Assembly (NCBI GenBank): GCA_965645245.1
Contig: OZ287086.1
Location: 248,001-312,000, forward strand
DNA: 64,000 bases
Reading direction: 5' to 3'
Source of the DNA: Massalongia carnosa
Lineage: Eukaryota
Program-made: the position numbers and the translations under genes
In this document: piece by piece, positions 7,246 to 45,800 of the stretch
How positions within the stretch are numbered: the first letter of the stretch is position 1
Layout of the letters: each line of letters begins with the position of its first letter
The notes under the pieces: generated by a model
The model's database searches: none
The model's input: the letters and a program-made list of their open reading frames with translations, nothing else
Told to the model about the DNA's origin: nothing

Positions 7246-10060
7246 TCAATGTTCCTTAAGGGGATAGAAATTCTTCATCAACCTCCTATGCGTCTCATCC
7301 ATCTTGTCAAACTTCCCCGCGAACTCAAACAGCTTCCCGGCCAAACACGCTTCGTGCAGTGCCAACGGATTAGCCTTACCAAGAATTCTCTTATATATCT
7401 CCATTAAAGTACAAGTCTCTTCGAAAGTCCGACAATTTATGAACCCATAGTCCACCTGAACGGCAGGGCTAGGAAGAAACTCCGCAGGATCAGCAATCGC
7501 CACAAATTGCTTGAGATCCCAAACAGAAGGCCAGGGTCCGGCAGGCGGGACGGAAAGAAATTCTTCAAGAAATGGAAATTTTATTCTTTGGTCCTTAAGG
7601 CCCTTGGAATCCATAAGTTGAATAAGTTTTCCAGCTTCGAAGGCCTGCCAGAACTCGGGGAAGGTGGCTGTTTGGCCTTTGCGCCGTCCCGGCATTGGGA
7701 ACTTTAAATTGCTCCAGACATCTTCAAAAAGCTCATCGCCTGTTAGCAAAGCTTGGTAGAGCCCCCCGAGTGTTCCCTGTTCCCGTTCCCCATTGCATGT
7801 GCAGAAGCCGAATGCGTGCCAATTCTGCTCCATCGGATGGGGATGGGCCATGTGCAGGGTTGCCGCCAGCATGAGATAGGAACGGGCCTTTGCTTCCGGT
7901 TTCAACTCCTTCCGATCCTTATTCTGGTCCTCCGGATCGAGGTATGGACGGGCTTTGTCAAGGAATTTTGCTAACATTTGTTCCACGGACTCTTCTTTGG
8001 TCATGCATCTGTCAAGGATGTCTGTGTGATTTAAAAACCAGGGGAAATAGCCTCCTCGATGTGTCTCGGGGATCTTATAGTAGAAGTCTTTGATATTGGC
8101 AACAAGAGTGCCTTCAACGCGCCATTTGTGGACTTCTTCAGGACCTATCTTGTCGGAGAGCAATCCTTGGTATAGCCCGAAAAGTTTACACTTATCGGCG
8201 AAAGATGGCAGATGGTTAAAACCAAAATCTTCCAGGACTTCTTCCTCTTCGGATAGCTGGTCTTCGACAAGACTCTTGAATAAATAGTCGGCAGTTGTGA
8301 GTGGACGCCTGCTACATTGGAATATATGGTACAAAGAACTCTGATTTTGGCAGGACTCGCTGCAATAAAAACCCCGGCTACAAAAGCTGCATCTGCGTGA
8401 TGTCATTTTGCAACATACGTCGCATTCCTCCATCTTATCGGAATGTTTTTCGGGAGTCCTGATAGTTGTCAACTGAGAAGCGGGTTGCTCTTCCTTAAGA
8501 GTCTTTCTATTCTCGTGTCAGCAGGAATGTCTTCATAGGGACTCTTTGATTGCGAATCCCGAGGGTTTTGGGGTTATTACCTTTTGAACATTTGAGCAAC
8601 TCGTTCTTGCTCAGCTTTCAATCTCCATATCTTGATGTCAGACTGTCTCTGTAGACCTTCCGCGCGGTGGTCCGTCACAATACTACTCCCACCAATGACA
8701 GAGGTTTTCTGCTGGGGCTTATACTCCTTCATCGGTGCCTTTAATTCCTTCTTCAGACCCTTCTGCAGCTGTGTCAAAGCTTGACTTATTCTTTCGCATT
8801 GTTGTGGTACAAGCCCTGCAATTCGTGGCACTGTCCATTGACTGAAGACGCGCCCATGGCAGCCCCTCGAAGTGAAGCTCCCATGATATTGTAATAGTCG
8901 AGCGCACAGGAAGCAGCTGAGCTTGCTACATCCCAGATAGGGTAGCACACCATGGAGAGATGGATTATTGGTACATAGAAATAGTAGCATTTCGACTTCG
9001 GCATGCACTTGGAGCTTATTCTTCTGGACCTTCGTAAAGTCTCGGTTGACTTGACTGACCGAGCTTTTTCTGATCACGGCCTTAAGTGTCTGAGAGTCAA
9101 CGCATAATCCGAGTAGCTCAAAAGTCTGCTTTAGGTTGAGGGGGTTCTTAGGGGGCTTGACTGGTAAGCAGGTGTGTGGCAGTAGAATAATGGTGACTTC
9201 GTTGAAGCTCCCAAGCTTTAATGTAATTTCTTCAAATTTTTTGAATCCCACGCGAAGCCTGGCGAGCAAACATATCTCGACCCATAATTTTTCCGTGACT
9301 TCCACTGACGAATCCTGTAACAATACCTCGGCGCTCGTGCTTGTTCGGAGTTCGTATGCACAGTTGACCAGCTTGGCGTGCTCCGTTGCTGCGGCGTCAA
9401 AAACCAACTTTCGTAGCATTGAGAGCTTATTGGCAGAGATGGAATGGTTTCCAATCGTGATCTTACTGTGTGTCACGTTGTCTTCGCGCTTGAAAGCCGC
9501 TCTCAAATTGGGGACATAGTCGTGCTGGATCCGATCTTGGTAATACGAGACTATCTCAGCCCACATGGCGTCCATGACTGCTTTCGTTTCCATAGAGTCT
9601 AAACATAAGTGAATATCTCTAATGAGACGATTTTCTGATAGGGATACACACTGTGCCCACACGACAGCCTACTCAATAGTAAACTCAGCTTGTCGAAGAC
9701 TGCCTTGTCTTTCCCGGGAAATCCCTTATTGCGAGCTATCCAGATGGTCACACCATCCTCGGCCTCTTTCATGGCGGTACAAGAGACGGTCTTCCCATCC
9801 TTCTTGTTGGCAGCGAGTTCCGCCAAACAGTCTAGGAACTTCCTCTTCAGCCTCATGTGACCCGAGTCAGATATTTGATGAGCTTTGTTCGTGTCAACGC
9901 TAGCCCCATCCCACTCGTCATCACGATCATCTGCGAGCACATCGTTAGGCAGCGAGGCAGATTCGACCTGCCCGCCATCTCGAAGGTAGAGAAGATTAGC
10001 AAAGGCATTGAAATGTGCTTTGTTAAGCTCTGGGGTACCCCAGTGAAATGTTGCACTCAT
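7246..10060 (-). CDS. OTT_1508-like nucleic-acid deaminase fused to a MYND zinc finger and a fungal C-terminal domain; 3 exons (10060-9652, 9598-8581, 8506-7246), about 895 aa
   Basis: Deaminase motifs VHAEVEML, YLGCSKLSCFLC and RGCHG..W. MYND-like CDVC..CSFC..YCSESCQ..HIFQC. GT-AG introns 9599-9651 and 8507-8580 join the three ORFs in frame. Confidence 0.8.
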
Positions 10061-18466: not shown

Positions 18467-21400
18467 ATGTCCTCGTTTGATTATACCCAGATAAATCCAA
18501 AAAACTGGAAGCTGTCGGATATACGAACAGGTCTGCAGTGCGATGACGCTCAATTCGAAGCGATTAAGCTTGAGTTATGGTTAGGGATTAAGAACAGCGG
18601 TCTTTTGGGGCAAAACTGGCAAACGACGGGCTCTCGAACCTCGCTGGACAGAGTAATACAAAATTTAAAGAGAAGTCCCAAAATTGTCTCCATTTTGGCT
18701 CCTCAACCAGACTCGTGGGTCACCGCAGCTTTAAAAGGCCTTGCTCGATACCTGAAGTTTGATTCGAAGAGGGGGAAATCAAATCCCTCATCAGATATCC
18801 CACCAGCGCCAGAGTCTAATGTCAAGTCTGATCCAGCTTCTTTCGCTCCGGCTCCATCTATTTTTACGCCTTTGTTAACGGATATCTTCTTTTGTGCAAC
18901 CCGGCAAGAAACAAGCTGTACTAGTTTCTGCATGGCTAGTGATCTTATAGAGGGAAATGAGCTTGAGGATACACTGAAAATTGCCGATATACAGTGGACA
19001 AAGTACTTACAGGTACTAATTCAAGATGAGGTTATGCTCATTGATGAGACCCCTGAGATATGGTTTCAAGCTGGAACGCGCCGCGTTGCCGTAAAAAACC
19101 AGAGAGGATTTATAGCCTCTATTCACTATCAGTTGCGCGAGGGAGTGACCCTCAACTACACAAGTATATCTGCACAATCAAGTAAGTAGTCATCAATCGA
19201 TAGAGATGATTGGTTGTAGTCTAATATTCATCAGCCAACGATCCACTTTCTGGAAAAGAGTCGTTGGTTGTTTCTCCTACGAAATATCGTTCAAGTATAA
19301 ATACAGACGAGCAGGCTAATCCTGCAGCATGCATCATCATACCTTCTCAATCTTTACCGAAGTATAAAAACGAGCTTAATCTTGCGCAGCAACACGCGGA
19401 TTCTATACCAGCCTTATTAACTCCATCCTTCAACTCCTTATCTCCTCTCGATTATTGCTTACCCGTATCTAAAAATGCCGAGGATAACACGAGTAGAGAA
19501 GCTAGTCCACAAAAATGTACGTGGTCGTCAAAATGTATCACGAACCGTATGTCGTAGACTAATATATATTCAGCTTGGGGACAAGGCAGAAAACGTAACT
19601 TTGTAGATTCTGAAAGCGATGATGCGGAATCCGATATTGTTATCAAGAAATCAAAACCAGAACTACTGGATCGGAGTACGAAGGATAGCAGTGAAGAGAA
19701 TTCACGGAGGATCATTGGCGACATTGACATCGGCTACAATGATGACAAGCTTTACACAAGGCAGCTTGCTGTTGATGATGCTTTGGTTAATGCTGATAAC
19801 GAGGATCCCGAGGTTGAATCGCTGACAAAAGAGTAGGAGTATTCATGGAATATGGTTTAACAGCTTATTGCTAATCTATCATGTTAGGTTTCGCAAGCTG
19901 AGAGATCTAACAGTTTGTGAACAGCTAACAGAAACTAATTGGAGGGATGCATGTATTTTTTGGAAACGTTTCAGTTCACAAAAAAATGCCAGTGATCGAA
20001 TTGCAGTTCCTGGCATGAAACGTCAGTTATTGCTCGTTCAAGGATTTGCTGTATACTGGATGCTGGCAACGGAGAATTCTGACACAGGAGGAGGTTTTTT
20101 GGCAGATGAAATGGGCCTGGGGAAGGTAGGACTTTCTACGTGGAATATTTATTATGTACGTCAGGATAACATATTGCTTGCAGACAACGATTTTATTGTT
20201 TTTAATCGTCATGTCAAGATGGATTGGTATTGCTCACAGCGAAGTTACAGCAGCGCGAGAAAAGAGTGATTATTCTCGTCATCTCCGTGCAGGAACCAAG
20301 GAGAGTCCTCAGACCGCAGATGTGAGATGTCCTACCGAGCCTTATCCTATGTGCTGTCCTTGCGTGGATCGTTCACCATCTGCCAAACTCGTTACCTTAC
20401 CTGGTCCTTCATTAGTTTTCGCACCAAAGAATCTATTACAGAACTGGAAGAATGAGTGGGAGAAGTCAGTGGACACTCAACGCTCCTCTTTGATGGATCT
20501 TCAGTTGTTTATAGCACATCGAGATGAAAAGAGTCTGCCACTACAATACCACCATCGACTCAGTCTACAAACGAACTCCGACGATCAGCCAATCTCCGGC
20601 CAGGAGCGATATGTGGTGCTAGCTACTACGGGCTCTTACCAGGGTCAAGTACAAACACTGCTCCGGAAGCCAATTCCACGTAAAGGACGAGCCCCTCAAC
20701 TATTCAAGGATGGCGTCCAATGGGGGCGCATCATTGTAGATGAGTTCCGTAAGCAAAAGAGTGTCTCCGCTACTCTTCCCAGCCTATTGCATAGCCTCGC
20801 GGGAAGGTACTTCAAACATCAATGGTTCGCTAGTGGGACACCATTTGACATCTCTCCTATGGATATGGCCGGCTATTTGCGAGCATTGGCTACCGAAAGC
20901 TGGGAAGCAGACTCAGTGCTACAGCATGGAACTAGAGCGGGATTAGAAAGCATTGGAAAAACCTTTCACGTATTGATAAAAAATCAAGGCGGTAACATAG
21001 AAGATAAAAAGAAGGTAACGGGAACTTTCGGAGCGCTGCTACAGCGGATTATGATTCGCCGTACTAGTCAGAGTCGTTGGTTCGACGACCAGCCATTGAT
21101 AGATATCCCCCCACATAGGCATCAAGAGGTGCCATGCCTCTTCAAGAAGAAATACGTCGCCGACATGAATGCGCTCATAACCATAGCGGAGACAAAGCTC
21201 AAGGAAGATTGTGCAGCACGAACTGCAGCATGGATCGATAGAGGTCGGATAGGAGAGGCACCAAGGCGTTCTTTTGCGGCGTTTTTCTTGACGGCGTACA
21301 AGTTACGAGTCGCCGCGACCTTTCCATTCTTGGCCAAGATGTACAAGAATTACAATCTTGAATTAACCTGGGCTGAAATAACAAGAAATGAGTGGCATAT

Positions 21401-22139
21401 CAAGCCAGATCCAGAAGATAATCCATATATCAGGCATCTTGGAGAAATAGTAGAATCGAGCTCCAAGTTAGACAAGTTGAGGAGCATTGTGGATAATTTG
21501 GGAAAAGATCATAAAGGTCTAGACGAGAAACTACTAATTATGTCGTTCTCTCCAGTTGTTTGTTTCATTGTCTCATTGGTAAGTTGCCTTTGATTCTTTT
21601 GAAATTCCCGCTTTGCTGGAATAATCATACTGTCGTACTTTGATTGAAATTTGGCACAAGTACTAACTTTAGAATAGTGGCTACAGCGCCTTCGACCCTC
21701 CAAAACCACTACCTTCATGTATGCCGGGATGAACCATCGAATTAGAGACTCCATCATTGATGGATTTCAAGATGAGATAGATGAAAATGGACAGTATGTA
21801 TCCGAAGTTCGTCCGGATTTTTTGATCGGATCTACGGAGGTACTAGGCACGGGTCATACTTGCACACGGGCGTTCAGGGTGGTTCTTATGGAACCTGATT
21901 ACAAGGTTAGTACGGAAAGGCAGGCTATCTTCCGTATAAGTCGCTTCAGTCAATTAAATCGCGCGACATGGTCCTACCGCCTAATTTGCCAAGGTCTGTC
22001 GGTGGAGACGGCGATCATGAAACGGCAGCAGGCGAGGCTGGAACTATCTGATATGACTTTTGCGTACATACCAGAAGATGTCCAGGATGCGCCTACGATG
22101 GAGGGGAACTCGGTCGAGAGTGCAATGATGATAGTTTAA
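18467..22139 (+). CDS. SNF2-family ATPase/helicase with a long N-terminal extension (about 6 exons)
   Basis: GGFLADEMGLGK/T is split by an intron at 20126-20182. Also IIVDEFR (atypical DExH), ASGTP, MIRRT, SSKL, GHTCTRAFRVVLMEP and QAIFRISRFSQ. Other GT-AG introns near 19182, 19517, 19833 and 21579. Confidence 0.85.
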
Positions 22140-29896: not shown

Positions 29897-31426
29897 GCTG
29901 ACAGCATCCTATCCCATCTCAAGCTTCAGTTGTATTCATCCTATAACGCATAAGATCGATCTTTGTTCTCATCGTCTTCTCTTGTTCAAGCTTCATCGCA
30001 ATATTGATGCATTTCTTCATAACAATCAATCCAGCCTTCTAAAGCTTTAAATTTCAATCACCATTCATACACTTTGATCAACACAAACCCGCAGAGAACA
30101 GGAAAAAGAAATCAAACAAAAAAGTTGCATCATTCTCCTTCTCCGCTACTTCTGCGTCAACACTTGCTTTCTCGAATACTTCCTCCGTCAACGCCTGCGA
30201 GCCCCTACTCGCTGCTCTCACCGTCATCCACCCGGCCTTCTACGACCACGAGAAACCCCATGACCAAGAAATCCCTCCGAAAAACATCTATACCGACTGC
30301 ACCACCTCGCTTTTGCAGCTCGAGCAGAGCTTTCAACTCGCCAAAGCTGTGCTCGCAGCGGGCAGATCGTGAAAAGAAGAATACGAGGAACTGGGTCGCG
30401 ATTGGAGGCTGCAGAAGAGAATTGGTGGAATGAATCGGTATCGGAAGGCGGGGAAAAGGCTGAATGAGGAAGTCATCAAACGAACGATCAAGGTTGAACA
30501 CCGCGCATTTTGCATTATGGAGCGAATTCAAGGAGCCACTTTGGAACAAGCCTGAGCTGGATGACAACCATCAGGTTGGCGGTGCAGCTTCGTCGGTATG
30601 TCGGCCTGTTAAGGTCGGTGACTTCGTCGACCGCAGGATCTCTGGCCACCGGTGAGTGCAGGTCATTTTCGCTTGAAGATCACTTTGGTCTGCCTGCACG
30701 ATCAAGCCCAGAAGTCAACACGTCTTTGATCAAATTCTGGGTCGACTTTGTCTCTATCCGACAAGCCATGAAGGCCACTAGCCGAGGTCCAGCACGTAAC
30801 AAGAGATACGTACCTAAAAAAGCCACAGCTCTATTTTTCACCCATCATGACCTTCGCCCCTCGCAACATTATCCTCGATCCTTCAGGCAACCTGTGGTTG
30901 CTGCATTGGGATTACGCCGGCTGGTATTCTAGCTACTTCGAATATGCATCCATGCAAAACTTCTTTATTCCTGAAGGCTGGGGTTTTCTGACGCGAGTGT
31001 GATGGCGTCTATTCACTTTTCTCGCTGTTGGATACTCTGAGAAAGACCGGCGCGTGCTAGAGCGGATAAGAACGAGATTCACCCGTTTTTCTGTTGGCCG
31101 CCGGTTCGAGATCATGAGAAACGCTGCACCATCTAGAATCCTGCATCGTAGTTAAAGTACTTAAAAATAGGAATAGAAGTAAAATATTCACAAAAATAAT
31201 AATCCGAGTTTTTAAACGTTTATCAAGATGTTTCAAACCCGATTTTAATTTCAATGACGAAATCGATTTTAAAATTTTATTCAACCGATATATACACACA
31301 TATACGACTTGTAGGAAAAATAAAAGATTATTATTGAAAAAGACCCGGTTCTGTTTCAAAATACGTTGGATTTGTTTCCTACGGAAAAATCTTTCATATG
31401 ATGTTTTTGAATCCAGAAACAAAACT

Positions 31427-34400
31427 TCACATCGAATTTGATCGATAGATCTCGCGCAGCTTTTCCTTACCGGTACTCGGGAAAAGGCTGGGATTCTTCT
31501 TACACTCGGACGCCAATTTTCCCCCGGCGCGACGAAGTATCCGGGCAACCTGATCATAAATTTCTACTTTCGACTCGAGTTCTGCGATGAAGACGTGTAG
31601 GTCAGATTTTATTTCACGACTCGATTGATCTATAGCAGACGCTTCATTTCTTACCTGCTCTTGTAAATCTTGAGTGCTCTCTTCTGTAAAGAATTCTTAG
31701 ATTAGAATCTCGTCTCTGGAGGGCCGTGTCGAGTGGAGTTTCCGAGCGAAGTCGCTTCGAAGCACTACCCTCAAATGTCCAGCGTTTGTGTATCGCATTG
31801 ATTCGAGCCCCTTCCTTGATGAGAACCTTGACACATTCTGGAACTCCTCCCGAAGCCATCAAATGCAACAGGCTCGTACCCTTCAGATCTGCCCGTTCCA
31901 GCAGATCGGCCTTCTTCAAGTGGTCGCGGATGGGATGTAAATGCTTGCTCAGAAAGCGGGCAAACACCGTGTCAGTGCTAACGTAACCTCGGGCGAGCAA
32001 AGCAAGGACGTGGTATCCAAAATCCATGTTCCTAGGGTTGAGAACCCTCTCAGTAATGTCCGCACCCATGTCAAGAAGAAGGTCGACGATTTCGAGGTCC
32101 AAGATATGGGTAATCGGAGTTTGCCCTAGGTTATCCCGGCAGTATATATCCACACCATAGGAAACAAGAGTCTCGACTGCTTCCAGAGACCTCTTTCTCT
32201 TCCGAGTGCTTGTCATCTGTTGGAGGAAGAAAAGCACGTTTGCTCCGTCTATATTCCGTACATTGACATCGGCACCCGCTTTGAGTAACTCCGCGATTGA
32301 CTCCGGCTGGTTAGCCTGTAATGCTAACATAAGAGGCGTCATTCCGACCGAACTTTTTGACCGGGGTTTTGTGAACTGGTTGATATCTCCTCCAAGCCTG
32401 ATTAAAGCCCGAATGGTATCCCGTAAGTTCTGTTGAACTGTCTCAGGTTCTCCCCAAAACAACCGCTGGGAATATCCAATCTCAGAAAAGGTGTATTTCA
32501 AATGACCGCTCTCTAGTCGATGAAACGCAGAGCAACCTTCCTCGTCGACATCGTTGATCCTATCATATGAGCCCATTTCGATCAGCCGTTGCAGAATATA
32601 AGGCTCTCGTTGCATAACGGCAAGGTCCAAGGGAGAGAGCCCGAGCGTAGTTCCGTCTGCAACAGAATATTTTACCCAGTCAGGGCCTCTGAAATGCATC
32701 GTCGAGCGAAATATTTCGTCATAGATATAAGGGTCATCACCATTGCGAACGGATGGATCGGCGCCAAGCGCTAAGAGGCTCTTGATAGCTGCATTCTGGC
32801 ATGTCGCAACTGCCCAGTGTAGGGGCGTTCCGCACGGAAGTAGAAAGGGGTAGTGAAACAGTGGCAATTCCTGGTATGTGAAAGCCACGACGCTCGCCCC
32901 GGACTTCACTAAAGCCTTTGCGGCATGCTCAACCGATTGCTCATCAAAAGCGAAGATCCAGTGTAGACAGGTAAATCCGCCCGGCAAGTAAGGTATAGAT
33001 GGATCCGCCCCGTGGGCCAGAAGCACTTCAACAACATCCCAGTTTCCACGAAGACATGAAACATACAGCGCAGTTTGACTCCATTGGACTGACGCGTTCA
33101 CATCGATAGGCAAACGTTCCAGCGATTCTTTTATATGATGACTGTTGCCAAAAGCCACCTCATAATAGAGGTTGAACTCTTTTACTCGGTCTCGATAGCC
33201 TTCAGCCCACTGACGGAAAGCCAAGCGGTCGGTTCTCTGACCAGAATGATAATGATGAAACTGATTGTAACCCCCATATTTCCGAAAAGTATTAGCTGCA
33301 GCCCTAAAAGCATCAGAATCGATCTTTTTGAGCTCCAACCCTGCTACCATAGAACCAGTTTCGACTGCTTCTGTGAGCCATTGCGACTCGAAACGCTGCG
33401 CCTTATATGGGAGCTTGCACTGAAGGCTACGACAGACGAGAGGTAGAAGCCCCATCGCAGGTGCGCTACCCAGAAGTGCAGCAGTCACTAGAGGCTCCAG
33501 CAGAACGGTTTGATCCGAGTCCTCAGGCATCTCTGTGTTTTGCCAATACTTCGTGCTGTGAAGAAATACTGTCAAAAGCCGGCTTGGTTCAATGAGGGAC
33601 AAGTCGTCTTTGAATACAGTCTTCAACTGTTCCACCAAGTATCCACCTAAACACGGAGGAATCCACGGACACCATTGATGCTCGGCACTAACGCTGTCGC
33701 TAGAGTCATCGGTTCTAGGTTTAGAAGAACTTTCACAAGAGTATTTGCTTGCCCTTTTGCCAAATCAGCATGAGGCCCGGAACCCTCTTAACAAGAGTCC
33801 AAGACTAACCAATCCTGATATAACGGGGTTCCATCGTCCAAGGAATCGGAGATCATCTCTGGGCGATGTTCTGGATCTGTCTGCAATAGGTTACATATTG
33901 TTTCACTCATCTTGAAGTATGACGAGATGAGATCTTTTTCAACCTCTGTTTTGTAAGTTTTCAATACAGTGCTTTTGTTCTCAAGATCGTGCGCACGCAC
34001 ACAGATTCCTCCAAGAAACATCGAACTCCAAAGAAGCAGCCCAAAGCTATAATTATCGGCTTTCAGTAGATCCGAGGGTTGAAGCGGACTACCCAATTGA
34101 ATCTCTGGCGCTTGCCATCCTGGAGTACCTTTCGGTATCTCTCCAGCGTGCATATCTTCGTACAAAGACATGCCAAAATCAGCCAATTTGGCTGTGAGGC
34201 CATCCTGATTAAAGATAAGAACATTTGCCGGTTTCAGATCTCCATGTACAATGTCGACTTGATGAAGCGCATCCAAGCCAGCCCCAACGTCGAGGCATAA
34301 TACATATCTGGTGGACCAGGCAAGAGCTGGGCCTTCGTTATGCAAAAATTTTGCTAAGTCGCTCAATGCAATCTCTTGGCCCAGAAGTAGGGGCCATTGA

Positions 34401-34861
34401 AACGTTGTGGTGTCGTAAGTCCAAAACAAACTTTTGACAATATTTCGATGTGTCCGGAGGCTTGGATGATGCAATACCAATATCTCGAGGTAAATATCGT
34501 GCAGCTGTCGCTGTGTCATTCGAGTGGCTAGATTGAGGGTTTTGTTGGTTTCTAGGAAGAACCGGGGCTGCTTCACGGCCACGACGTCTGCTAAAAATTC
34601 GTCGTTACTGTGCTCGAAGACACGAGTTCTGAACACTCGATATTGAGCACCCTCGCCAATCAAGACTTCAGTTCCATAAGTTATGTCCGGGCCGCTGAGG
34701 TTGACCTCTATCAGCAAGTCAACAAGGTCCGTCAGCCCTTTGAGGTGTTTAGAAGTTAGGCTGCTGAAGTAAAGCTTATTGTCGAATTTGTCGGCTGCAT
34801 TATTGGAAGTTGTCGCGCCGAAAGGTTTGCTCATATATGACACCGGCTGCAAGGAATCCAT
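31427..34861 (-). CDS. Protein kinase + Sel1-like helical linker + ankyrin-repeat protein; 3 exons (34861-33810, 33753-31655, 31581-31427), about 1101 aa
   Basis: Intact kinase motifs GEGAQY, VAVK, alphaC E, HGDLKPAN, DFG and GTPGWQAPE. Intron 33754-33809 (GTTAGT..GCTGAT..AAG) joins in frame to the ANK ORF (TALYVSC, TPLHWAV, TPLMLAL, SLLHLMA). Intron 31582-31654 adds QVARILRRAGG. Confidence 0.85.
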
Positions 34862-35121
34862 GACAATGACAGAACACTAAGTAAGCACTCTCGGCGATCA
34901 AAATTCGACAATAATATATTGATGATAACCGTAGCTGGGTCAGTAGTCTATATTAAATCCTGTTGATGCCGTGTGCAAGAAGAGGGCTCACAAGTATGTA
35001 AGTGGAATGATTAGCCGGTCATCTACTTCTTGTGGTAGCCTTATGCCCCTCTCTTTAGCTTTCGAATTCTTGTTTTTGGAGTAAAAATCTACCAACTGGC
35101 AGTTAAACCTCGAAACAAAAC

Positions 35122-36699
35122 ATGGAGGCGTCTCTTGGAATAGTCAGTCTTGCAATTTCTGGACCACCCTTGATCGAGGTGTTAATTAGGCTTGGAGACT
35201 ATCTCGTCCACAGAGCAAAACAACATCGTCAGATCGGCGACAACGTAAAGTTATGTGAGCAAATTATCAGCCTCAACAAAACGCAATCGAGGCTACTTCT
35301 CGCCTTTTTCAACAAACTGGAGGAGCAGATTTCTTCGGATTTGCAAGATGAAGTTGATAAGCTGTATCAGAGCTTGCGGAATCTTTATGAAGATCTTATT
35401 AAGGCTTTTTCCAAGAACCAGGATGCGTCGACATCTGCCAACGCCAAACCAGCCAAGTTCTCTTCTCGAGACGTGCTCAAGATCCAAGACGCTGTTGACA
35501 ATCTTGAGACGTGGAACGATCGATTTCTCAAATTTGCAATTATTATCATGATCTCCGACAAAAGCGATTTCAAACCTTCCATGGAAACCCACCAGCGCCA
35601 TCTCCACAGTTGGGCTGCCTTGGAGCGTGTTCAGAAGCTTCGTGAAGCAGTGCAGGCGACCCTTGCACATACATCTCCTCCGACCAAATGTTTACTGGAC
35701 TCGGAGGACAATGCCCCAACTCGAGTTCAGCTTTCTCACTCGACGCTATGGATCATTCAAAACCCTACAAAAGTACTCGCTGGAAATCAAAGGTATTTGA
35801 TCGAGACTCGGTCATATAGTGACGATATCGACACGGTGACCTTGAATGAAACTCGCAGAACCGTCCGGGATATTGCGTTGATTCTGCGTGAAGCCGACCC
35901 GAGCATCATGGGTGTTCTGCAATGTCATGGGTTCCGGCATGAGCGGCGGCAAAATCGATTTGAGCTTCATTTCATGTTCCCCAATGGCGCTCACAACCCT
36001 CGCAGTCTCCGCGACTTACTAAAGGATTCCAAGTATAAAGACGTGGGAGCGGTTCATCCACTTAATCACCGACTTGACCTCGCCAAAAAGCTCGCCTCCG
36101 CGGTCTTCTTCATCCACTCGGGAGGCTTTGTCCACAAGAACATTCGTCCGGAGAACATCATTATATTTGAGCCCGATCTCGCAGAAAGTGCTTGTTCAGC
36201 CGAAACCATTAAGTACAGTCAATTTCCACGTGCCCTCGGAGCCCCCTATCTCGTAGGTTATGACGGTGTTCGCAAGGTGGACGCCAAATCTGATCGCATC
36301 GCCGTCGATAACCCCGAACGGGGCATTTATCTCAGTCCCGAACGTCACCGACTGAAGGTCGGCGACGAGTTCACGATGCAACACGACGTATACAGCCTCG
36401 GGGTTGTCTTGCTTGAACTCGCACTCTGGAAGGATCTCACCAACCATAGGTCTTCGGTGGGAATGGTATTGTGGGATCGCGCAGGCGTTTTAAAGCCGTA
36501 TACGTCGCTGCATGAAAACCTACTCTCTTTGGCAAAGACTCACGTTTCAAGATATCTCGGTCAGAACTACGCCGACGCGGTGACAACTTGTCTTGCCGGA
36601 CTGAAGGATATAGAGACCCACATGGATCAAGACGGCGTGGTCGTAGGACTGGCATATATCACGCAGGTTTTACAGAAGTTGGAAGGGATTGTCTTGTAA
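35122..36699 (+). CDS. HeLo/HeLo-like N-terminal helical domain + pseudokinase (MLKL-like architecture), 525 aa, single exon
   Basis: Hydrophobic N-helix MEASLGIVSLAISG followed by amphipathic helices ending LETWNDRF. Kinase-fold C-lobe has HKNIRPEN in place of HRD, VGYD in place of DFG, YLSPE and DVYSLGVVLLELALW. No GxGxxG or VAIK seen. Confidence 0.8.
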   Translation: MEASLGIVSLAISGPPLIEVLIRLGDYLVHRAKQHRQIGDNVKLCEQIISLNKTQSRLLLAFFNKLEEQISSDLQDEVDKLYQSLRNLYEDLIKAFSKNQDASTSANAKPAKFSSRDVLKIQDAVDNLETWNDRFLKFAIIIMISDKSDFKPSMETHQRHLHSWAALERVQKLREAVQATLAHTSPPTKCLLDSEDNAPTRVQLSHSTLWIIQNPTKVLAGNQRYLIETRSYSDDIDTVTLNETRRTVRDIALILREADPSIMGVLQCHGFRHERRQNRFELHFMFPNGAHNPRSLRDLLKDSKYKDVGAVHPLNHRLDLAKKLASAVFFIHSGGFVHKNIRPENIIIFEPDLAESACSAETIKYSQFPRALGAPYLVGYDGVRKVDAKSDRIAVDNPERGIYLSPERHRLKVGDEFTMQHDVYSLGVVLLELALWKDLTNHRSSVGMVLWDRAGVLKPYTSLHENLLSLAKTHVSRYLGQNYADAVTTCLAGLKDIETHMDQDGVVVGLAYITQVLQKLEGIVL

Positions 36700-37084
36700 A
36701 ACTAGATCAACTCGAACAAGAAGACCAAAAAGAGTGAACGATCTTCAATCATTCAGATATACTAAACCAATGTTTTTATTCACCCCTGAACTCGGGCAGA
36801 GATTACGTAATTCCATGAGGATGACACTAAACCCTTGCCTCAGTACCTCAGACGTGCTGTGGCTCAGCCTTGGCCTTTATTAACCATTTCCGGTTAACTC
36901 GGCACTAAAGTCTAACTTTTTATAGTTAGGCTTTGCTTACTAAGTTCACTGTCTGCCGCCCGAAGCATACGTAGTAAGCTAAACAGAGTCTTAACCCAAA
37001 ACAGTTAAACTATTCACAAAACTAGCTTAGCTTTAGACTGATAATAGAAATTTGAATAGGTTTAGCTGTGGCGAGTGCAAGGCA

Positions 37085-40738: not shown

Positions 40739-43700
40739 TTAAGAGAAGACTCTTCTCAACCCGTATATATCCTCAGCATCAGCACCAGCTTTCAGCAATA
40801 AAAGCTCCAACTTCTCCATACCTCTGGATTCAGCTTTTTGCAGCGCTGTTTCTCCTTCCGCATCCATCGCGTTGATATCCGCCCCCTTCTCCAGCAGCAG
40901 CTGCACCACCGCCTCGTGACCTTCCCCCGATGCCGCCTGCAGCGCGTTGCCGTACTCTCCGCCCTGCAAGTTGACGTCCGCCCCCTTCTCCAGCAGCAGC
41001 TGCACCACCGCCTCGTGACCTTCCTCCGATGCCGCCTGCAGCGCGTTGCCGTACACTTCGTCCTGTGCGTTGACGTCCACCCCCTTCTCCAGCAGCAGCT
41101 GCACCACCGCCTCGTGACCTCCCCACGATGCCGCCCACAGCGCGTTGCCGTACTCTCCACCCTGCTCGTTGACGTCCGCCCCCTTCTCCAGCAGCAGCTG
41201 CACCACCGCCTCGGACCTCCCCACGATGCCGCCTGCAGCGCGTTGCCGTACTCTCCGCCCTGCGCGTTGACGTCCGCCCCCTTCTCCAGCAGCAGCTGCA
41301 CCACCGCCTCGTGACCTCCCCACGATGCCGCCTGCAGCGCGTTGCCGTACTCTCCGCCCTGCGCGTTGACGTCCGCCCCCTTCTCCAGCAGCAGCTGCAC
41401 CACCGCCTCGTGACCTCCCCACGATGCCGCCTGCAGCGCGTTGCCGTACTCTCCACCCTGCTCGTTGACGTCCGCCCCCTTCTCCAGCAGCAGCTGCACC
41501 ACCGCCTCGTGACCTCGCAATGATGCCTCCTGCAGCGCGTTGTCGTACTGTCCGCCCTGCTCGTTGATGTCCGCCCCCTTCTCCAGCAGCAGCTGCACCA
41601 CCGCCTCGTGACCTTCCACATATCCGTTTTTCGCGGCGATGTGCAGTGCTGTGTCCCCCCACTTATCTAATATTTCAGTGTCTGCGTCCTTCTCCAACAA
41701 TATCTCTATCACTTTCTCATTTTTCTTTAGAATAGCAAGATGTAATGGTGTTCCGCCCTCTAAATCTCTGCTATTGATGTTTGCACCTCTTTCAATTAAC
41801 AATGTGATCGTTCTGATGTGTCCACTGATGTCAGCAAGGCACAAAGCTGTGTTGCCGTCTTTATCTTTCAGATCGACTTCTGCGCCGTTACTCAACAGGA
41901 TTTTTGCTATGACTTCATGTCCTCCCTTGGCGGCCCAGTGTAACGCTGTCCGACTGCACCCGCCCTTCTTGAAATTAACGTTTGCACCGTATTCTAATAG
42001 CATTTCTGTCGCTTTTTCGTGTCCGGCATAAGCGGCTTCTAATAATGCATACTCTTTTAGTTCGCTTCTTGCGTCAGTTTTTGCATCGTTATCTAATAGT
42101 TTTCTCATAATGCCGAGTTTTCCAAATGAAGCAGCCACAGCCAAAGTCATCTTGCTAGAAGAAAAATTAAGATTCATTCCTTCCCTTAGAAGCTCTTTTG
42201 ACACTTCCTCAACCCTCATCCAATCCGGGTGTAGGTTTTCATCTTCTGCGAACTCGTTGACATCTACAGTTCCTACTTTGCTTAGAAGCAACTTGACTAT
42301 TCTATGATGTGCATGAAATATTGCCAGGTGTAGCGGTGTCACTTCGAACTCTTTAAGATATAAATCTGGTGTCAGCTTGTCTACTTCGCCACTTTCATTA
42401 CACAAATTTATATTTTCATGTTCACTGTTCGTTGACCGAACAGTTGTCCCTGCGTTTAGCAATATCTCCACCGCTCGATAATGGCCACTCATAGCCGCAA
42501 TATGCAGTACTGTCAAACCTGTCTTATCTTGGGCATGGATATCGGCCCCTTTATCTAGCAACAGCTGCATCGTATCAGCATCAAAGGCTAGGGCAGTATA
42601 ATGCAATAGTGTGCGGTTCTTGGACTTATCCACCGAACGTAGATCTGCCCCGTTCTCCACCAGCAGCTTTACCACGTTCCTACGATGAATGGCGCACCAT
42701 GAGGAGGGTTGTCCATCCTCATCCTGGATGTTATCACCTCCCTTTATTTTTGACAGCAAAGCCGCTACACTATGTTCATTCCTCGAGTAGCTCTCCAACT
42801 GCAACAGTTTGGAAATAATTGGTGTTTCTGATTTGTCTGCAGCGTTGCTATCTGCCTCGGCTTTCACAAGTAGCTCAAATACTTTCTTATGTTCATGCTT
42901 AGCTGCAAGCCATAGTGCCGTCATTCCGTGTCGGTCTTTTGCAGAGCAATCAGCCCCGTGAGTCAACAAAGTCTTCACGCTAGCTTGGTGTCCATCGGTA
43001 TCTCCTGTCACAGCTGCACAATGAAGAGCTGTCCTGTTGATCCAATCTCGCGCTTTAAGGGATGCTCCCGCATCTACTAAAAGCTCCACAACCCCTCTTC
43101 TTCCGTTTGCAGCTGCCAAGGAAAGTGCTGTCATCATTTCGTTATTTGCTACTTCCAGATTTATCTTTTTCTTCAATAGCAATCGCACCATCCTTTCATC
43201 ATTCTGCAACACACCAAGATGCAAAGAAGTATGACCATTTTCATTCCGTTGATTCCAATCAATGTTCTTTGAGGCGATCAGGAGCTCGACAATTGAAAAC
43301 AGCCCAAGATAACTTGCAATAAATTGAGCTGTTGGCGGCATGCTCAAGGCTTCGAGTAACATGCGCTTTTTTTTATGGTCAGTCCACGACATTGACTCGT
43401 ATAGTCGCTTTGCAGAGGAGGTCCAGCTAGCGAAGGCAACGCTAACGTCGTTAAATAGAAACTGTGTCAACATTGCTTTCATGGACCCGGAGAGTTGATT
43501 ATGTTCGATGCGCACGTAATGGCTTGGCCAGTGTATGGTTGCATAGGCTGTAAAACAATCCTTATTCTCAGTCCTCGAGGCTGCATCATAAACGAACAGT
43601 GCGAGACATCTCTCCAACGCATGCGAGTGTATGTTAATATCATTATACTCATCACAGCCTTCGACATATTCACGCACGGACAGATGTGCAAACCGAAAGA

Positions 43701-45800
43701 GGTCAAGCTCTGCATCTACGACAACCAAGTTACAACAAATATGTAGTAATTGCGTTTTTGAAAGAGGAATAGCTTGCCCGTTGGAATCTACCGCTACAGC
43801 GGTTATGAAATCCGCAGTATGAAGAGGACGTTGTGCACTCAACAGCCATTTTAAGGCACTGTTCGCTATCAACCAGCTCTGGGACCCGGATTTCTTAACT
43901 CGTGTGAAGATAACATTATATGATTCCTTCAGAGTTGTTGGCAGTCGGCCAAGTTCGTGATGAATGTCCTCTTCATGCTTGATGCGTTCGAAGTCGCAAA
44001 GGTTCTCGAGCTGAAGGCTAACCCATCGAAACCTAATGATGGTCAAAAAAGACATGAACTAACACCGGACGAAATCTTACATTCCCTGAGCGCCTTGAAT
44101 TAGAGTGGAGGTTATCAGATTCTTTAAAGAATCTGATAAGTCACCGCAAAGTAGTCTCCGATCTTTTACAGCTTGAGTAACTTCGGCGTACACAAAGCGC
44201 TGAATGTCTTCTCCATTATCGCTCGCATGAATGAACACATTTGGGGAATTAGATAAGCGGCAGACAATGTCATTGTCATCGCGACTTGAGACAAACACCT
44301 TTACAAGACTAGCCGAAATCTGAATGATGGTATCCAGAGCTTGAAGTAATTCATGTCGCCGAGCTGGGTCACATTCGTCGAGAGCGTCAATAATAATGAT
44401 CGCTGGATCATTCTCTAAAATTGCAAGAATGAGCTTTACACATTCTGTTGCTGTCAACTTCTCTAGTATGCAGCCATTCTCGTCAGCCTCTTCTTTCTCT
44501 TTGGCGTAAGCCTTTACCACTGGCTCCTTGATGGAGCAGTCGAGTTTAGAGCATGATAGTTGCTTCAGTATACTCCGCAAAATCTCATCAGGGTTTGCGC
44601 GTTGCGGCTCGGTCGTATTTCGGGTACAGTAAAAGTAAGAAATGGGTGTATTGCTTTTGCTTGCGGCTCTTTCCTTCTCAAGAAATTCAACGACAGTGAA
44701 GCTTTTAGCGTCAGTATCGACATTCAGTAAAATTCTAGTAAAGATTAGAGGCCTACACTAGTTTACTTTTACCTGATCCAGCTTTACAGGAGAGTAAGTT
44801 AGTAGGACGTCTTCATCGGTATTAGAACTACTTATGGGTCCCATGTAGCCATAATATAGTGTAGGACCGTTCTTATTGATCTGGAAAATGATGTTCTCCT
44901 TGTCTATCTAAACTGGAAATTCTAGCTAGCTATATAGACCATTTCGCCACATTCTTTCATAATCTAGATATCTTCCAGCCACTTCTATTTACTAATAAAT
45001 CATTAGTGATCCGGAACCCATGCGAGGTACAATGCTTTGAAATCATTGAGTATTAGAAATCAGATATATGGCATATAAAGAAATAGTATCTGAAAGATTG
45101 AGGCCTCGGTTATTAGTCCGAAATCACGTGCTTTTCCTTCAACAGGATCTTACTTCGGGAATTGGCTTGAACCACGGTCTATTTATATCGACATATAGAC
45201 GAAGAACTCGATTTTCTCCACTCAAAAAACTCAACCTTATGTAGCAGCCATAACCCTGAGTTAGGGAGCAAAACCCTCCCTATGGTCCTATGATGGGTTT
45301 TATGCGGTATTTGGGAAATCCACTGGAAAATTTCATGACGCTCCGATTCTAAAGTTCAAATCAGAGATCATGGGCTGTTCAACCTGATTTCATGGAAAGA
45401 GCCAGATGAATATTACAAAGTAACGAAGACGCCTGGAATTGGAACAGAAATATAGGTATAAAAAATACGGCCAGACTGCAGGTCTCTTTAACGAAAGACT
45501 CAGAGTCAAATCGCATGCCATATCGATAATGCATTTTATGAGTACTTGGCTTACGTTTTAGAGAATCATGAAGTTCTGAGATCTGGATAGCAGATCTTTT
45601 GATGGGCTCTTTTAGCTCATGCATGATACATTTAAGCTTCTGTAGTTCCTGTTGACCATTCTGGCGCTCTTAATGGAATAAATAAGTCCCTTGCGTATTT
45701 CTGCAGAGTGGAGTTTTCGTGTAAAGCCGAATAAGATGCTCACCTGAATTCATAGTCATAATGCTTGCTTCAACGTCTTTGATAAAACTTTGGTGTGCTA
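40739..45800 (-). pseudogene. NACHT-ankyrin fungal NLR-like gene, disrupted
   Basis: ILWLHG followed by a mutated donor (ATAAGT), then Walker A AGSGKSKL near 44760-44783. Walker B IIIIDALDEC, VFVSSR and GMFRWVSLQL across intron 44033-44079. More than 20 ANK repeats. 1-bp deletion near 41213. Region upstream of about 44860 is broken. Confidence 0.85.
40850..41617 (-). repeat. About 7.5 near-identical 99-bp ankyrin repeat units (high internal conservation)
   Basis: Unit GHEAVVQLLLEKGADVNxQGGEYGNALQAASxx. Markedly more GC-rich than the rest of the gene. Confidence 0.95.

What the first reader, a model, noticed from the sequence alone, without database searches (positions are those of the whole stretch)
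31427..36699. Head-to-head kinase-ankyrin + HeLo-pseudokinase pair: candidate fungal RIPK/MLKL-like (necroptosis-like) two-gene cell-death module
Seen: two intact genes transcribed divergently with 260 bp between their ATGs (34861 and 35122), in a window where most TE genes are broken. One has all kinase catalytic motifs (VAVK, HGDLKPAN, DFG, APE) plus C-terminal ankyrin repeats. The other has an N-terminal helical HeLo-like region and a kinase fold lacking catalytic residues (HKN for HRD, GYD for DFG). Established: HeLo/HELL domains are membrane-permeabilising death domains related to the MLKL four-helix bundle; MLKL is a 4HB-pseudokinase activated by RIPK3 phosphorylation; kinase+ANK is the RIPK4/ANKK1 architecture; fungal and plant immune sensor/executor genes are often adjacent. 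Inference: the ANK repeats sense a non-self ligand, the kinase phosphorylates the pseudokinase, and the HeLo domain is released to kill the cell, without NLR or amyloid signalling. I know of no description of this pairing but cannot check the literature here.
Basis: partly seen in the sequence, partly recalled or inferred. Interest (0 to 1): 0.9.

Follow-up and report, generated by a model that had tools for sequence, protein, structure and literature searches.

The report
Conserved fungal kinase plus MLKL-like gene pair
Two back-to-back genes of a lichen-associated fungus, an active kinase with ankyrin repeats and an MLKL-like dead kinase with a helical N-terminal bundle, stay together across many fungi and look like a kinase-triggered cell-death switch that has not been tested.

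Summary
Gene A (minus strand, 34861..31427, three exons, 1101 aa) is an intact kinase with C-terminal ankyrin repeats. Both of its introns are confirmed by RNA contigs. Gene B (35122..36699, 525 aa) has a predicted four-helix N-terminal bundle, a connecting helix and a kinase fold with HKN for HRD and GYD for DFG. Their ATGs are 260 bp apart.

The pairing is not chance. In metagenome loci carrying B relatives, 7 of 7 non-redundant close orthologues with upstream DNA have the same divergent kinase-ankyrin gene. Across the wider family, 19 of 37 groups have a divergent kinase fused to ankyrin, WD40 or no recognised repeats, against 3 kinase ORFs in 392 kb of other flank. Partner divergences correlate (Mantel r 0.88).

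A profile of the B family aligns in one collinear stretch with full-length mouse MLKL (E 3.7e-9). However, no Pfam HeLo model matches, and fold scores for the bundle are no better than for unrelated helical bundles. The kinase is TKL-type, nearest LRRK2, and not specifically RIPK-like.

The reading as a kinase-gated MLKL-like module is plausible but untested. MLKL-like fungal proteins are already in print. I did not find the pairing in print.

The parts
31427..34861 (-). Gene A, kinase-ankyrin protein, 1101 aa. Exons 34861..33810, 33753..31655 and 31581..31427 (stop TGA included).
   Evidence: ORFs. Splice prediction. RNA-contig joints 33752|33809 and 31581|31655. Final model. Coordinates checked.
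33754..33809 (-). Intron 1 of gene A, 56 nt, GTTAGT...CTGAT...AG.
   Evidence: Skipped in an RNA contig of run X10. A loose end in X9 at 33809 is consistent with the same splice.
31582..31654 (-). Intron 2 of gene A, 73 nt, GTAAGA...CTGAC...CAG. It removes the in-frame stop at 31644.
   Evidence: Skipped in an RNA contig of run X9. Sequence and reading frame.
33842..34684 (-). Active protein kinase domain of A (about aa 60-340). It carries K97, E126, HGDLKPAN 206-213 (a non-RD kinase), DFG 228-230 and APE 251-253.
   Evidence: Pfam Pkinase 7e-20. All catalytic residues are invariant in 33 aligned sequences. Motif coordinates checked. Nearest solved sequences are LRRK2 at 4e-15, then GRK1, CTR1, CERK1 and RAF, with RIPK3 at 2.5e-9.
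31720..33160 (-). Ankyrin-repeat region of A (approximate limits).
   Evidence: Pfam Ank 9.5e-35 and Ank_2 7.2e-31 with 4 stretches. Many columns are >=90% conserved among 33 homologues.
34862..35121 (.). Shared 260-bp divergent spacer between the two ATGs.
   Evidence: A related strain carries a 5-nt insertion here, at 35046-35047.
35122..36699 (+). Gene B, MLKL-like protein, 525 aa, with no intron.
   Evidence: RNA-run contigs show no joint inside it. 119 homologues found. AlphaFold2 model has pLDDT 83.6.
35164..35556 (+). Predicted four-helix bundle of B (helices 15-34, 40-66, 72-97, 115-145). It is preceded by a hydrophobic, Gly/Ala-rich N-terminal segment (aa 1-25).
   Evidence: Models. 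VIA-align gives Z 10.1 to mouse MLKL residues 2-117, 10.2-11.6 to NRG1.1 CC-R, 9.8-10.8 to Rx CC, 10.0 to MLA13 and 8.7 to AtMLKL3. ESM Atlas nearest clusters are HeLo. Hydropathy.
35581..35667 (+). Connecting 'brace-like' helix of B (aa 154-182).
   Evidence: Model. The N-domain-only model places it at 162-183.
35719..36696 (+). Pseudokinase domain of B (Pfam DUF7580 region in relatives). HKN at 36133..36141, GYD at 36256..36264, and a conserved Ser/Thr (S390) at 36289..36291 in the activation segment.
   Evidence: Kinase fold with Z 21.3 to BRAF and 17.9 to rat MLKL pseudokinase. Foldseek top hits are IRAK4. DUF7580 maps onto this region in relatives. Column counts: N340 in 50 of 56, G379 in 55 of 56, S/T390 in 55 of 56.

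Best explanation
The two genes form a conserved, co-inherited functional module.

Gene A is a catalytically competent, non-RD, TKL-type kinase. Its C-terminal ankyrin array is the regulatory or sensing part.

Gene B is a fungal MLKL-like protein. It has a hydrophobic N-terminal segment, a four-helix bundle, a connecting helix and a catalytically dead kinase fold.

The most likely mechanism follows RIPK3-MLKL. A signal received through the repeat domain activates kinase A. A docks on and phosphorylates the activation segment of B's pseudokinase, with the near-invariant Ser/Thr at position 390 as the candidate site. That releases the N-terminal bundle to oligomerise and attack a membrane, giving regulated cell death or another membrane-level immune output.

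What is shown: the gene models, the splicing of A, the catalytic integrity of A, the degeneracy of B, conserved synteny, correlated divergence of the partners, the predicted MLKL-like architecture, and the collinear profile match to MLKL.

What is inferred: physical interaction, phosphorylation, the direction of signalling, membrane activity, cell death, and what is sensed.
For: Synteny:
- Of 80 metagenome loci with B relatives (the best 80 of 320), tblastn with A's parts found a kinase hit in 23 loci and an ankyrin hit in 12.
- All 10 loci whose B copy is >=36% identical over full length and that have >=2 kb upstream carry a minus-strand kinase+ankyrin gene 400-712 bp upstream. These 10 loci make 7 non-redundant groups.
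- With an HMM of the kinase, 19 of 37 non-redundant groups with >=1.5 kb upstream have a divergent kinase ORF within 3 kb. That is 18 counted by the script plus L007, which the script misfiled because the stop-to-stop ORFs overlap. The background is 3 kinase ORFs in 392 kb of other flank.
- Pfam on the partner genes finds ankyrin (L004, L011, L013, L057, L071) or WD40 (L020, L041). These are the repeat types of fungal NLR sensors.
- Names and contig lengths point to adjacency in Trichophaea hybrida (BDD12DRAFT_882700/882701) and Trichoglossum hirsutum (GP486_001564/001565).
- Divergences of kinase and partner correlate over 16 pairs: Mantel r 0.877, 0 of 5000 permutations reach it.

B is MLKL-like:
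- The AlphaFold2 model shows four helices, a connecting helix and a kinase fold.
- The family profile hits full-length mouse MLKL (4btf) at E 3.7e-9 in one alignment covering MLKL residues 26-422. HKNIRPEN aligns with HRNISSSS and LVGFD with LAGFE.
- HKN and G-F/Y-D are conserved in the family. In 141 further representatives the DFG position reads GFE in 36 and GFD in 21.
- 92 of 93 long proteins (>=430 aa) carrying the N-domain also carry this pseudokinase.
- ESM features of residues 1-215 are nearest to HeLo clusters, scores 0.93 and 0.92.
- A distant relative, P0119, combines Pfam HeLo with the same pseudokinase.

A is an active kinase: all catalytic residues are invariant in 33 sequences.

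Maintenance and expression:
- RNA-run contigs about 94% identical to the window carry both spliced introns of A and cover B.
- All coding indels in that allele keep the frame.
- Between loci L024 and L026, dN/dS is 0.24 for the B gene and 0.43 for its partner kinase.
Against: - No Pfam HeLo, HeLo-like, SesA, Goodbye or MLKL N-terminal model matches any of 56 B relatives at E<=1.
- The N-domain profile alone finds nothing significant among solved sequences; MLKL scores E 3.1.
- Profile-profile comparison with the HeLo-bearing relative is not significant: E 0.066, probability 0.8%.
- Foldseek finds no match at E<=0.001 for the N-domain.
- VIA-align scores to the MLKL 4HB and plant CC domains (8.7-11.6) lie below those to unrelated bundles such as CBL TKBD and IncA (12.5-12.8). 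They are also within the range the tool calls uninformative for helical bundles.
- The significance of the MLKL profile hit comes mostly from the pseudokinase part.
- By fold, the pseudokinase is a generic TK/TKL kinase. BRAF and IRAK rank top, and MLKL is rank 50.
- Kinase A is not specifically RIPK-like.
- About half of the wider B family (18 of 37 groups) has no detectable divergent kinase, so the coupling is not universal.
- The ankyrin region is well conserved among homologues. That fits a fixed partner or ligand better than fast-evolving non-self recognition.
- Plant MLKLs can confer immunity without cell death (abstract of 10.1101/681015), so a lethal output is not a given.
- No binding, phosphorylation or toxicity was tested.
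Confidence: 0.55

Rival explanations
1. The pair is a conserved kinase/pseudokinase signalling module with a non-lethal output. B would act as a membrane-associated scaffold or allosteric regulator of A, or as a substrate that changes localisation, in stress, developmental or symbiosis signalling rather than as an executioner.
For: Conserved synteny and correlated divergence fit any functional coupling. The ankyrin region is well conserved, as expected for a fixed partner. The pair is transcribed in lichen thalli without any known challenge. Plant MLKLs separate immunity from death (abstract). There is no sequence-level HeLo membership.
Against: The N-terminus has the hydrophobic leader plus four-helix layout of death-bundle domains. 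ESM features point to HeLo. Partner kinases swap ankyrin for WD40, as immune sensors do. The genes sit in a region rich in transposable elements and close to an NLR-like gene.
Confidence: 0.25
2. Guard or decoy arrangement. B's dead kinase domain would mimic a kinase targeted by antagonists, such as toxins or effectors of competing microbes. A would monitor B or be regulated by it, so signalling would run from the pseudokinase to the kinase rather than the reverse.
For: The pseudokinase keeps a strongly conserved surface, for example 17 invariant columns including HK, Y403, R408 and HDxYSLGV. The kinase partner diverges faster than B in one allele pair: 83.5% against 93% DNA identity, and dN/dS 0.43 against 0.24. 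Kinase-pseudokinase immune receptors are known in plants; this point is recalled, not checked here.
Against: This does not explain why B carries an MLKL-like N-terminal bundle. The near-invariant Ser/Thr in B's activation segment fits a substrate role.
Confidence: 0.1
3. The genes are merely neighbours sharing a bidirectional promoter, with no functional link.
For: Divergent gene pairs are common in compact fungal genomes. About half of the wider B family lacks such a neighbour.
Against: 7 of 7 close orthologous groups and 19 of 37 wider groups are paired, against 3 kinase ORFs in 392 kb of other flank. Pairing survives across fungi whose B proteins are only 25-45% identical. Partner divergences correlate at r 0.877.
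Confidence: 0.03

Closest known systems
Animal RIPK3-MLKL necroptosis pair
   Same: An active TKL-group kinase is coupled to a protein built from an N-terminal four-helix bundle, a connecting helix and a pseudokinase. The pseudokinase has lost the catalytic Asp and has G-F-D/E in place of DFG. The family profile aligns collinearly with mouse MLKL. A conserved Ser/Thr sits in the activation segment.
   Different: The genes are adjacent and divergently transcribed. The kinase carries ankyrin (or WD40) repeats and has no RHIM, and it is nearest LRRK2 rather than RIPK3. The N-domain shows no significant sequence similarity to the MLKL 4HB on its own. No function has been tested.
Plant MLKLs (AtMLKL1-3)
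   Same: Same three-part architecture outside animals. The AtMLKL3 N-terminal bundle matches the model at Z 8.7.
   Different: I know of no dedicated neighbouring kinase for the plant proteins (recalled, not checked). Sequence similarity to them was not tested directly here.
Fungal HeLo/HELL executioners (HET-S, HELLP) controlled by NLRs through amyloid motifs
   Same: A fungal N-terminal helical bundle with a hydrophobic leader, encoded in a two-gene cluster next to its putative activator. ESM features are nearest to HeLo clusters. One distant relative has Pfam HeLo fused to the same pseudokinase.
   Different: There is no Pfam HeLo or HeLo-like match. There is no C-terminal amyloid motif, because B ends in the kinase fold. 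The neighbour is a kinase with repeats, not an NLR.
Fungal gasdermin-protease two-gene clusters (for example HET-Q1/HET-Q2)
   Same: The logic is the same: a latent membrane-attacking protein sits next to an enzyme that would activate it, and that enzyme is often fused to ANK, WD40 or TPR repeats (review PMC12881547, passages; partner repeats here).
   Different: The activating chemistry would be phosphorylation rather than proteolysis. The executor would be MLKL-like rather than gasdermin.
RIPK4/ANKK1 and LRRK2 (kinases with ankyrin repeats)
   Same: A TKL-type kinase is combined with ankyrin repeats. LRRK2 is the best solved-sequence match for A's kinase, at 4e-15.
   Different: Identity is low. 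There are no ROC/COR or LRR domains. The repeats are C-terminal as in RIPK4 (that architecture is recalled). Orthology is not shown.

Membership tests
MLKL-like proteins (4HB + brace + pseudokinase) | N-terminal four-helix bundle | tested here: inconclusive
   AlphaFold2 models show helices 15-34, 40-66, 72-97 and 115-145. VIA-align gives Z 10.1 (rmsd 2.9, 100 residues aligned) to mouse MLKL 2-117 and 9.5-9.7 to the human MLKL N-domain. Unrelated bundles reach 12.5-12.8. Foldseek finds no match at E<=0.001.
MLKL-like proteins (4HB + brace + pseudokinase) | Helical connector between the bundle and the kinase fold | tested here: met
   Helix 154-182 in the full-length model. This rests on the predicted model only.
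MLKL-like proteins (4HB + brace + pseudokinase) | C-terminal kinase fold lacking catalytic residues | tested here: met
   Kinase fold with Z up to 21.3. HKN replaces HRD (N340 in 50 of 56). G-F/Y-D replaces DFG (G379 in 55 of 56). GFE in 36 and GFD in 21 of 141 further representatives.
MLKL-like proteins (4HB + brace + pseudokinase) | Sequence similarity to MLKL over the whole architecture | tested here: met
   Profile A1 against solved sequences: 4btf_A at E 3.7e-9, second best of 364 hits, in one alignment of profile positions 43-446 to MLKL 26-422. Caveat: the N-domain alone scores E 3.1.
MLKL-like proteins (4HB + brace + pseudokinase) | Activation by phosphorylation and membrane permeabilisation | not testable with these tools
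This needs bench work.
Pfam HeLo (PF14479) and HeLo-like N-terminal domains | Match to the family HMM | tested here: not met
   [quoted passage not shown] The window protein has no such hit at E<=0.1.
Pfam HeLo (PF14479) and HeLo-like N-terminal domains | Profile-profile similarity to a HeLo domain | tested here: inconclusive
   hhalign of the N-domain profile against the two-sequence alignment of the HeLo-bearing relatives P0119/P0381 gives E 0.066 and probability 0.8%. The best segment is the same 30 columns in helix 4 as. The template alignment has only 2 sequences. ESM features are nearest to HeLo clusters, 0.93 and 0.92, which is a lead only.
RIP kinases (RIPK1/RIPK3 type) | Kinase domain closest to RIPKs | tested here: not met
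   Best solved sequences are LRRK2 (4e-15), GRK1, CTR1, CERK1 and RAF. RIPK3 appears at 2.5e-9, around rank 54 of 206.
RIP kinases (RIPK1/RIPK3 type) | RHIM amyloid motif | tested here: not met
   The pattern [IV]Q[IVLC]G occurs once in A, as IQLG at 254-257. That lies inside the kinase fold directly after APE. It does not occur in B.
RIPK4/ANKK1-type architecture | N-terminal active kinase plus C-terminal ankyrin repeats | tested here: met
   This is a match of architecture only; orthology was not tested.
Fungal two-gene regulated-cell-death clusters | Conserved adjacency of a putative executor and a putative activator carrying superstructure-forming repeats | tested here: met
   7 of 7 close groups and 19 of 37 wider groups are paired. 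Partners carry ankyrin or WD40 repeats.
Fungal two-gene regulated-cell-death clusters | Demonstrated cell-death output | not testable with these tools
   Needs expression experiments.

The most novel reading that the evidence does not exclude
Ascomycete fungi carry a family of self-contained 'kinase sensor plus MLKL-like executor' gene pairs. An active TKL kinase fused to ankyrin or WD40 repeats gates, by phosphorylation, a four-helix-bundle pseudokinase that attacks membranes. This would be a necroptosis-type kinase-to-MLKL axis outside animals that works without NLRs, RHIM or amyloid templating. It would be built on the same cluster logic as the fungal gasdermin-protease pairs.
Probability: 0.4. 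Interest if true: 0.9.

Novelty: new variant of a known kind. Interest (0 to 1): 0.8.

Why it matters
MLKL-type executioners are known in animals and plants, and a review notes the architecture in fungi. A dedicated upstream kinase is established only in animals.

A conserved, genetically linked kinase partner in fungi would make two questions directly testable. The first is whether kinase gating of 4HB/HeLo-type killers is ancient or convergent. The second is what activates MLKL-like proteins outside animals. The candidate activator is identified by synteny, and candidate sites (K97, D208 and D228 in A; S390 in B) are ready for mutagenesis.

The exchange of ankyrin for WD40 repeats on the partner kinases suggests a class of non-NLR intracellular sensors in fungi. 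If instead the module turns out to be non-lethal, it would still define the function of the Pfam family DUF7580.

Tried and rejected
- No whole genome is held for this window, so paralogues and genome-wide pairing could not be counted. Within the window there is no second copy of either gene, only a weak ankyrin similarity to the NLR-like gene.
- HeLo membership by sequence gave nothing significant. This covers Pfam, hhalign against P0119 alone, against the P0119/P0381 alignment (only the pseudokinase aligns, probability 99.8%), and the N-domain profile against solved sequences.
- A search for more HeLo-bearing relatives of P0119 returned only 2 proteins, so the template profile stayed thin.
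- Foldseek on the N-domain found no match at E<=0.001. The HET-s HeLo structure did not appear in any of the fold lists shown. This is not evidence against the fold.
- The representatives search with the N-domain profile listed only the best 150 of 741 hits, and all were of the same family. Weaker hits that might bridge to HeLo were not visible.
I used my own HMM of the pseudokinase instead.
- Earlier findings of this scan gave nothing by words or by sequence.
- Literature: seven full-text searches and passages from five papers gave no description of a kinase-repeat gene paired with an MLKL-like gene in fungi. 'DUF7580' occurs in no held paper. The 2016 PNAS paper on the HELL domain is not held, and subscription journals are not covered, so the pairing may be in print elsewhere.
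- Run X5 covers the stretch only in short pieces and was not used. Parts without cover in any run are not interpreted.

Full report
**1. What is in the sequence**

Gene B is one uninterrupted ORF, 35122..36699 on the plus strand, 525 aa.

Gene A starts at the ATG at 34861 on the minus strand. Reading the frames showed a canonical short fungal intron, 33809..33754 (56 nt, GTTAGT...CTGAT...AG). It joins the kinase ORF to the ankyrin ORF.

Contigs from two lichen metatranscriptome runs, about 94% identical to the window, were laid on 31400..36800. One contig skips exactly 33753..33808 (X10). Another skips 31582..31654 (X9), a second intron of 73 nt that removes the apparent stop at 31644. With both introns the CDS ends at 31427 and encodes 1101 aa.

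The two ATGs are 260 bp apart. The quoted motifs are all present at the expected codons:
- In A: VAVK, HGDLKPAN, DFG and APE.
- In B: HKN and GYD.

Pfam gives A a Pkinase match at 7e-20 and strong ankyrin matches. B has only a sub-threshold Pkinase match and no HeLo-type match.

The surroundings are rich in transposable elements, with split copia and gypsy ORFs. They also hold an NLR-like NACHT-ankyrin gene at 40.8-44.8 kb.

**2. Are the genes real and maintained?**

In the roughly 94%-identical allele seen in the RNA runs, every indel inside coding sequence keeps the frame. There is an 18-nt deletion at 32191 and a 1-nt deletion compensated 2 nt later at 31743/31745. A 5-nt insertion falls in the spacer.

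The spliced joints prove that A is transcribed. B has no intron, so its presence in RNA-library contigs is not by itself proof of transcription. However, one 4637-nt contig runs from spliced A across the spacer into B up to 36357. Contigs cannot show expression level, strand or transcript ends.

A DNA run from another lichen metagenome holds the whole stretch with 67 differences in 5.4 kb.

**3. Kinase A**

In an alignment with 32 homologues of about 900-1200 aa, nearly all annotated as kinase plus ankyrin, every catalytic residue is invariant. These are K97, E126, H206-G-D208, K210, N213, D228-F and P252-E. The catalytic loop reads HGD, so this is a non-RD kinase.

Many columns of the ankyrin region are conserved at 90% or more.

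Among solved sequences the kinase is nearest LRRK2 (4e-15). GRK1, CTR1, CERK1, RAF and Roco4 follow, and RIPK3 appears at 2.5e-9. It is therefore a TKL-type kinase but not a specific RIPK relative. The only [IV]Q[IVLC]G match lies inside the kinase fold, so there is no RHIM.

**4. Protein B**

119 homologues were found, nearly all about 500 aa. They come from fungi that the sources name as lichen-forming and other ascomycetes, plus one agaric.

Many carry Pfam DUF7580. In the relatives I scanned, this maps onto the degenerate kinase region, not the N-terminus.

In 56 aligned relatives the conserved features are:
- The catalytic loop reads H-K-N (N in 50 of 56).
- The DFG position reads G-F/Y-D (G in 55 of 56).
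- A Ser or Thr nine residues further on is present in 55 of 56 (S390 here).

The AlphaFold2 model (pLDDT 83.6, pTM 0.72) has these elements:
- A low-confidence, hydrophobic N-terminal segment.
- Four long helices (15-34, 40-66, 72-97, 115-145).
- A further helix (154-182).
- A kinase fold.

A profile of the family searched against all solved sequences gives full-length mouse MLKL as the second-best hit (E 3.7e-9). It is the only hit shown whose single alignment runs through the N-terminal domain as well (profile 43-446 to MLKL 26-422). HKNIRPEN aligns to HRNISSSS and LVGFD to LAGFE.

A profile of the N-domain alone retrieves 741 representative proteins. Of 93 new ones of at least 430 aa, 92 carry the same pseudokinase. 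In those 141 new representatives the DFG position reads GFE in 36 and GFD in 21. So the N-domain and the dead kinase form one fixed architecture.

**5. Is the N-domain HeLo or 4HB?**

Evidence in favour:
- The layout is a hydrophobic Gly/Ala-rich leader followed by a four-helix bundle at the extreme N-terminus.
- The nearest ESM Atlas clusters are 'Prion-inhibition and propagation' HeLo clusters, with scores 0.93 and 0.92; 7 of 30 hits are of this kind.
- A distant family member, P0119, has a true Pfam HeLo domain (5e-16) in front of the same pseudokinase.
- The 50 best of 48,161 representative structures include NRG1.1 CC-R (Z 10.2), mouse MLKL 2-117 (10.1), MLA13 CC (10.0), Rx CC (9.8), the human MLKL N-domain (9.5) and AtMLKL3 1-132 (8.7). 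Each is aligned from its own N-terminus (similar).

Evidence against or neutral:
- 0 of 56 relatives match any Pfam HeLo-type model.
- The N-domain profile alone is not significant against solved sequences.
- Profile-profile comparison with the HeLo relatives is not significant.
- Foldseek finds nothing at E<=0.001.
- Unrelated bundles (CBL TKBD, IncA) score higher, at 12.5-12.8, and the tool warns that Z below about 13 is uninformative for helical bundles.

My reading is that the domain is MLKL-like in architecture and probably a divergent member of the 4HB/HeLo superfamily (about 0.75), but membership is not demonstrated.

**6. Is the pairing conserved?**

A scan of metagenome contigs with the B alignment gave 320 relatives, and the best 80 loci were kept. 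tblastn with A's kinase exon and ankyrin part found the following:
- In every one of the 10 loci with a close, full-length B copy (>=36% identity) and at least 2 kb upstream, there is a minus-strand kinase followed by ankyrin repeats. It starts 400-712 bp (hit to hit) upstream of B.
- These 10 loci form 7 non-redundant groups.
- The three other close loci (L006, L012, L017) have under 320 bp of upstream DNA.

With an HMM of the kinase and six-frame ORFs, 19 of 37 non-redundant groups with at least 1.5 kb upstream have a divergent kinase ORF within 3 kb. L007 is counted by hand, because its stop-to-stop ORFs overlap. The other 18 have none. Only 3 further kinase ORFs occur in 392 kb of other flank.

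Pfam on partner genes of the more distant pairs gave these results:
- Ankyrin repeats in L013, L057 and L071.
- WD40 propellers in L020 and L041.
- A KA1 domain in L037.
- Nothing beyond the kinase in L016 (convergent arrangement), L024, L050, L059, L061, L067 and L077.

In two named fungi the B-like and A-like proteins have consecutive locus tags and contigs of equal length: Trichophaea hybrida 882701/882700 and Trichoglossum hirsutum 001564/001565. Two further unnamed pairs share contig length. This is inferred from names only.

Over 16 pairs, pairwise divergence of the kinases tracks that of their B partners (Mantel r 0.877; 0 of 5000 permutations reach it). Some of these pairs are paralogous modules from the same study, so modules appear to have duplicated and diverged as units. 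The correlation also contains shared species history, however.

Between loci L024 and L026, dN/dS is 0.24 for the B gene and 0.43 for the kinase.

**7. Mechanism**

The shown facts are:
- An active kinase with a repeat domain.
- A fixed dead-kinase partner with an MLKL-like build.
- A near-invariant hydroxyl residue in the partner's activation segment.
- Tight and ancient genetic linkage.

The simplest account is kinase-gated release of the N-terminal bundle, as in RIPK3-MLKL. The logic resembles the fungal gasdermin-protease clusters, where the activating enzyme is also fused to ANK, WD40 or TPR repeats (review PMC12881547, passages).

Binding, phosphorylation, direction of signalling, membrane attack and the nature of the signal are all inferred.

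The good conservation of the ankyrin region argues against rapidly evolving non-self recognition. However, the only allele differences I could see, the first 40 of 324, all in 31693..32102, were 29 non-synonymous to 11 synonymous. The question therefore stays open.

The rival readings are a non-lethal signalling pair, a decoy arrangement and mere neighbours. They are weighed in their own section of this report.

**8. Novelty**

The review PMC12881547 states two relevant things (passages read). [quoted passage not shown] PMC11476962 mentions fungal MLKL homologues (passages).

None of the passages read, and none of seven full-text searches, describes an MLKL-like gene paired with a kinase-repeat gene. 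The library lacks most subscription papers, and the 2016 HELL-domain paper could not be read.

I therefore rate this a new variant of a known kind, with high interest. The mechanism remains a hypothesis.

Noticed in passing
window 40792..44757 (minus strand): An NLR-like gene with a NACHT-type (NPHP3_N) piece, a winged-helix domain and a long ankyrin array. Its last repeats are near-identical tandem copies, and the same repeat then continues in another reading frame. This is a frameshift inside the array, either a pseudogene or an assembly slip. No N-terminal effector domain was found upstream.
   Followed up: partly
window 36726 onward: Contigs of both RNA runs leave the window sequence 27 nt after B's stop codon with the same unmatched continuation, while a DNA run from another sample continues. 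The downstream flank therefore differs between strains.
   Followed up: no
L024:7255-10963 against L026: In two related loci the B gene is about 93% identical at DNA level, but the adjacent partner kinase is only 83.5% identical, with twice the synonymous divergence (dS 0.31 against 0.15). The two halves of the module may have different histories here.
   Followed up: partly
L016:1255-4590: One B relative has its kinase partner downstream and convergent instead of upstream and divergent.
   Followed up: no
L020:1-1539 and L041:6482-8458: Partner kinases of more distant B relatives carry WD40 propellers instead of ankyrin repeats. In L037 the neighbour has a KA1 domain and may be an unrelated housekeeping kinase.
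   Followed up: partly
window 34091..34102 (A residues 254-257): IQLG, which matches the core pattern of a RHIM, lies directly after the APE motif inside the kinase fold. It is most likely coincidental.
   Followed up: no
window 31693..32102: The last roughly 410 nt of A's exon 2 carry 40 listed differences to the RNA-run allele (about 10%), of which 29 are non-synonymous. This is denser than the gene average of about 6%. Only the first 40 of 324 differences were displayed.
   Followed up: partly
window 7249..9668 (minus strand): ORFs with an OTT_1508-like deaminase domain (8.4e-18) and a weak MYND finger sit next to each other. A DEAD-box helicase ORF lies at 1574..2854 and an SNF2 piece at 20130..21590. 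They were not examined further.
   Followed up: no
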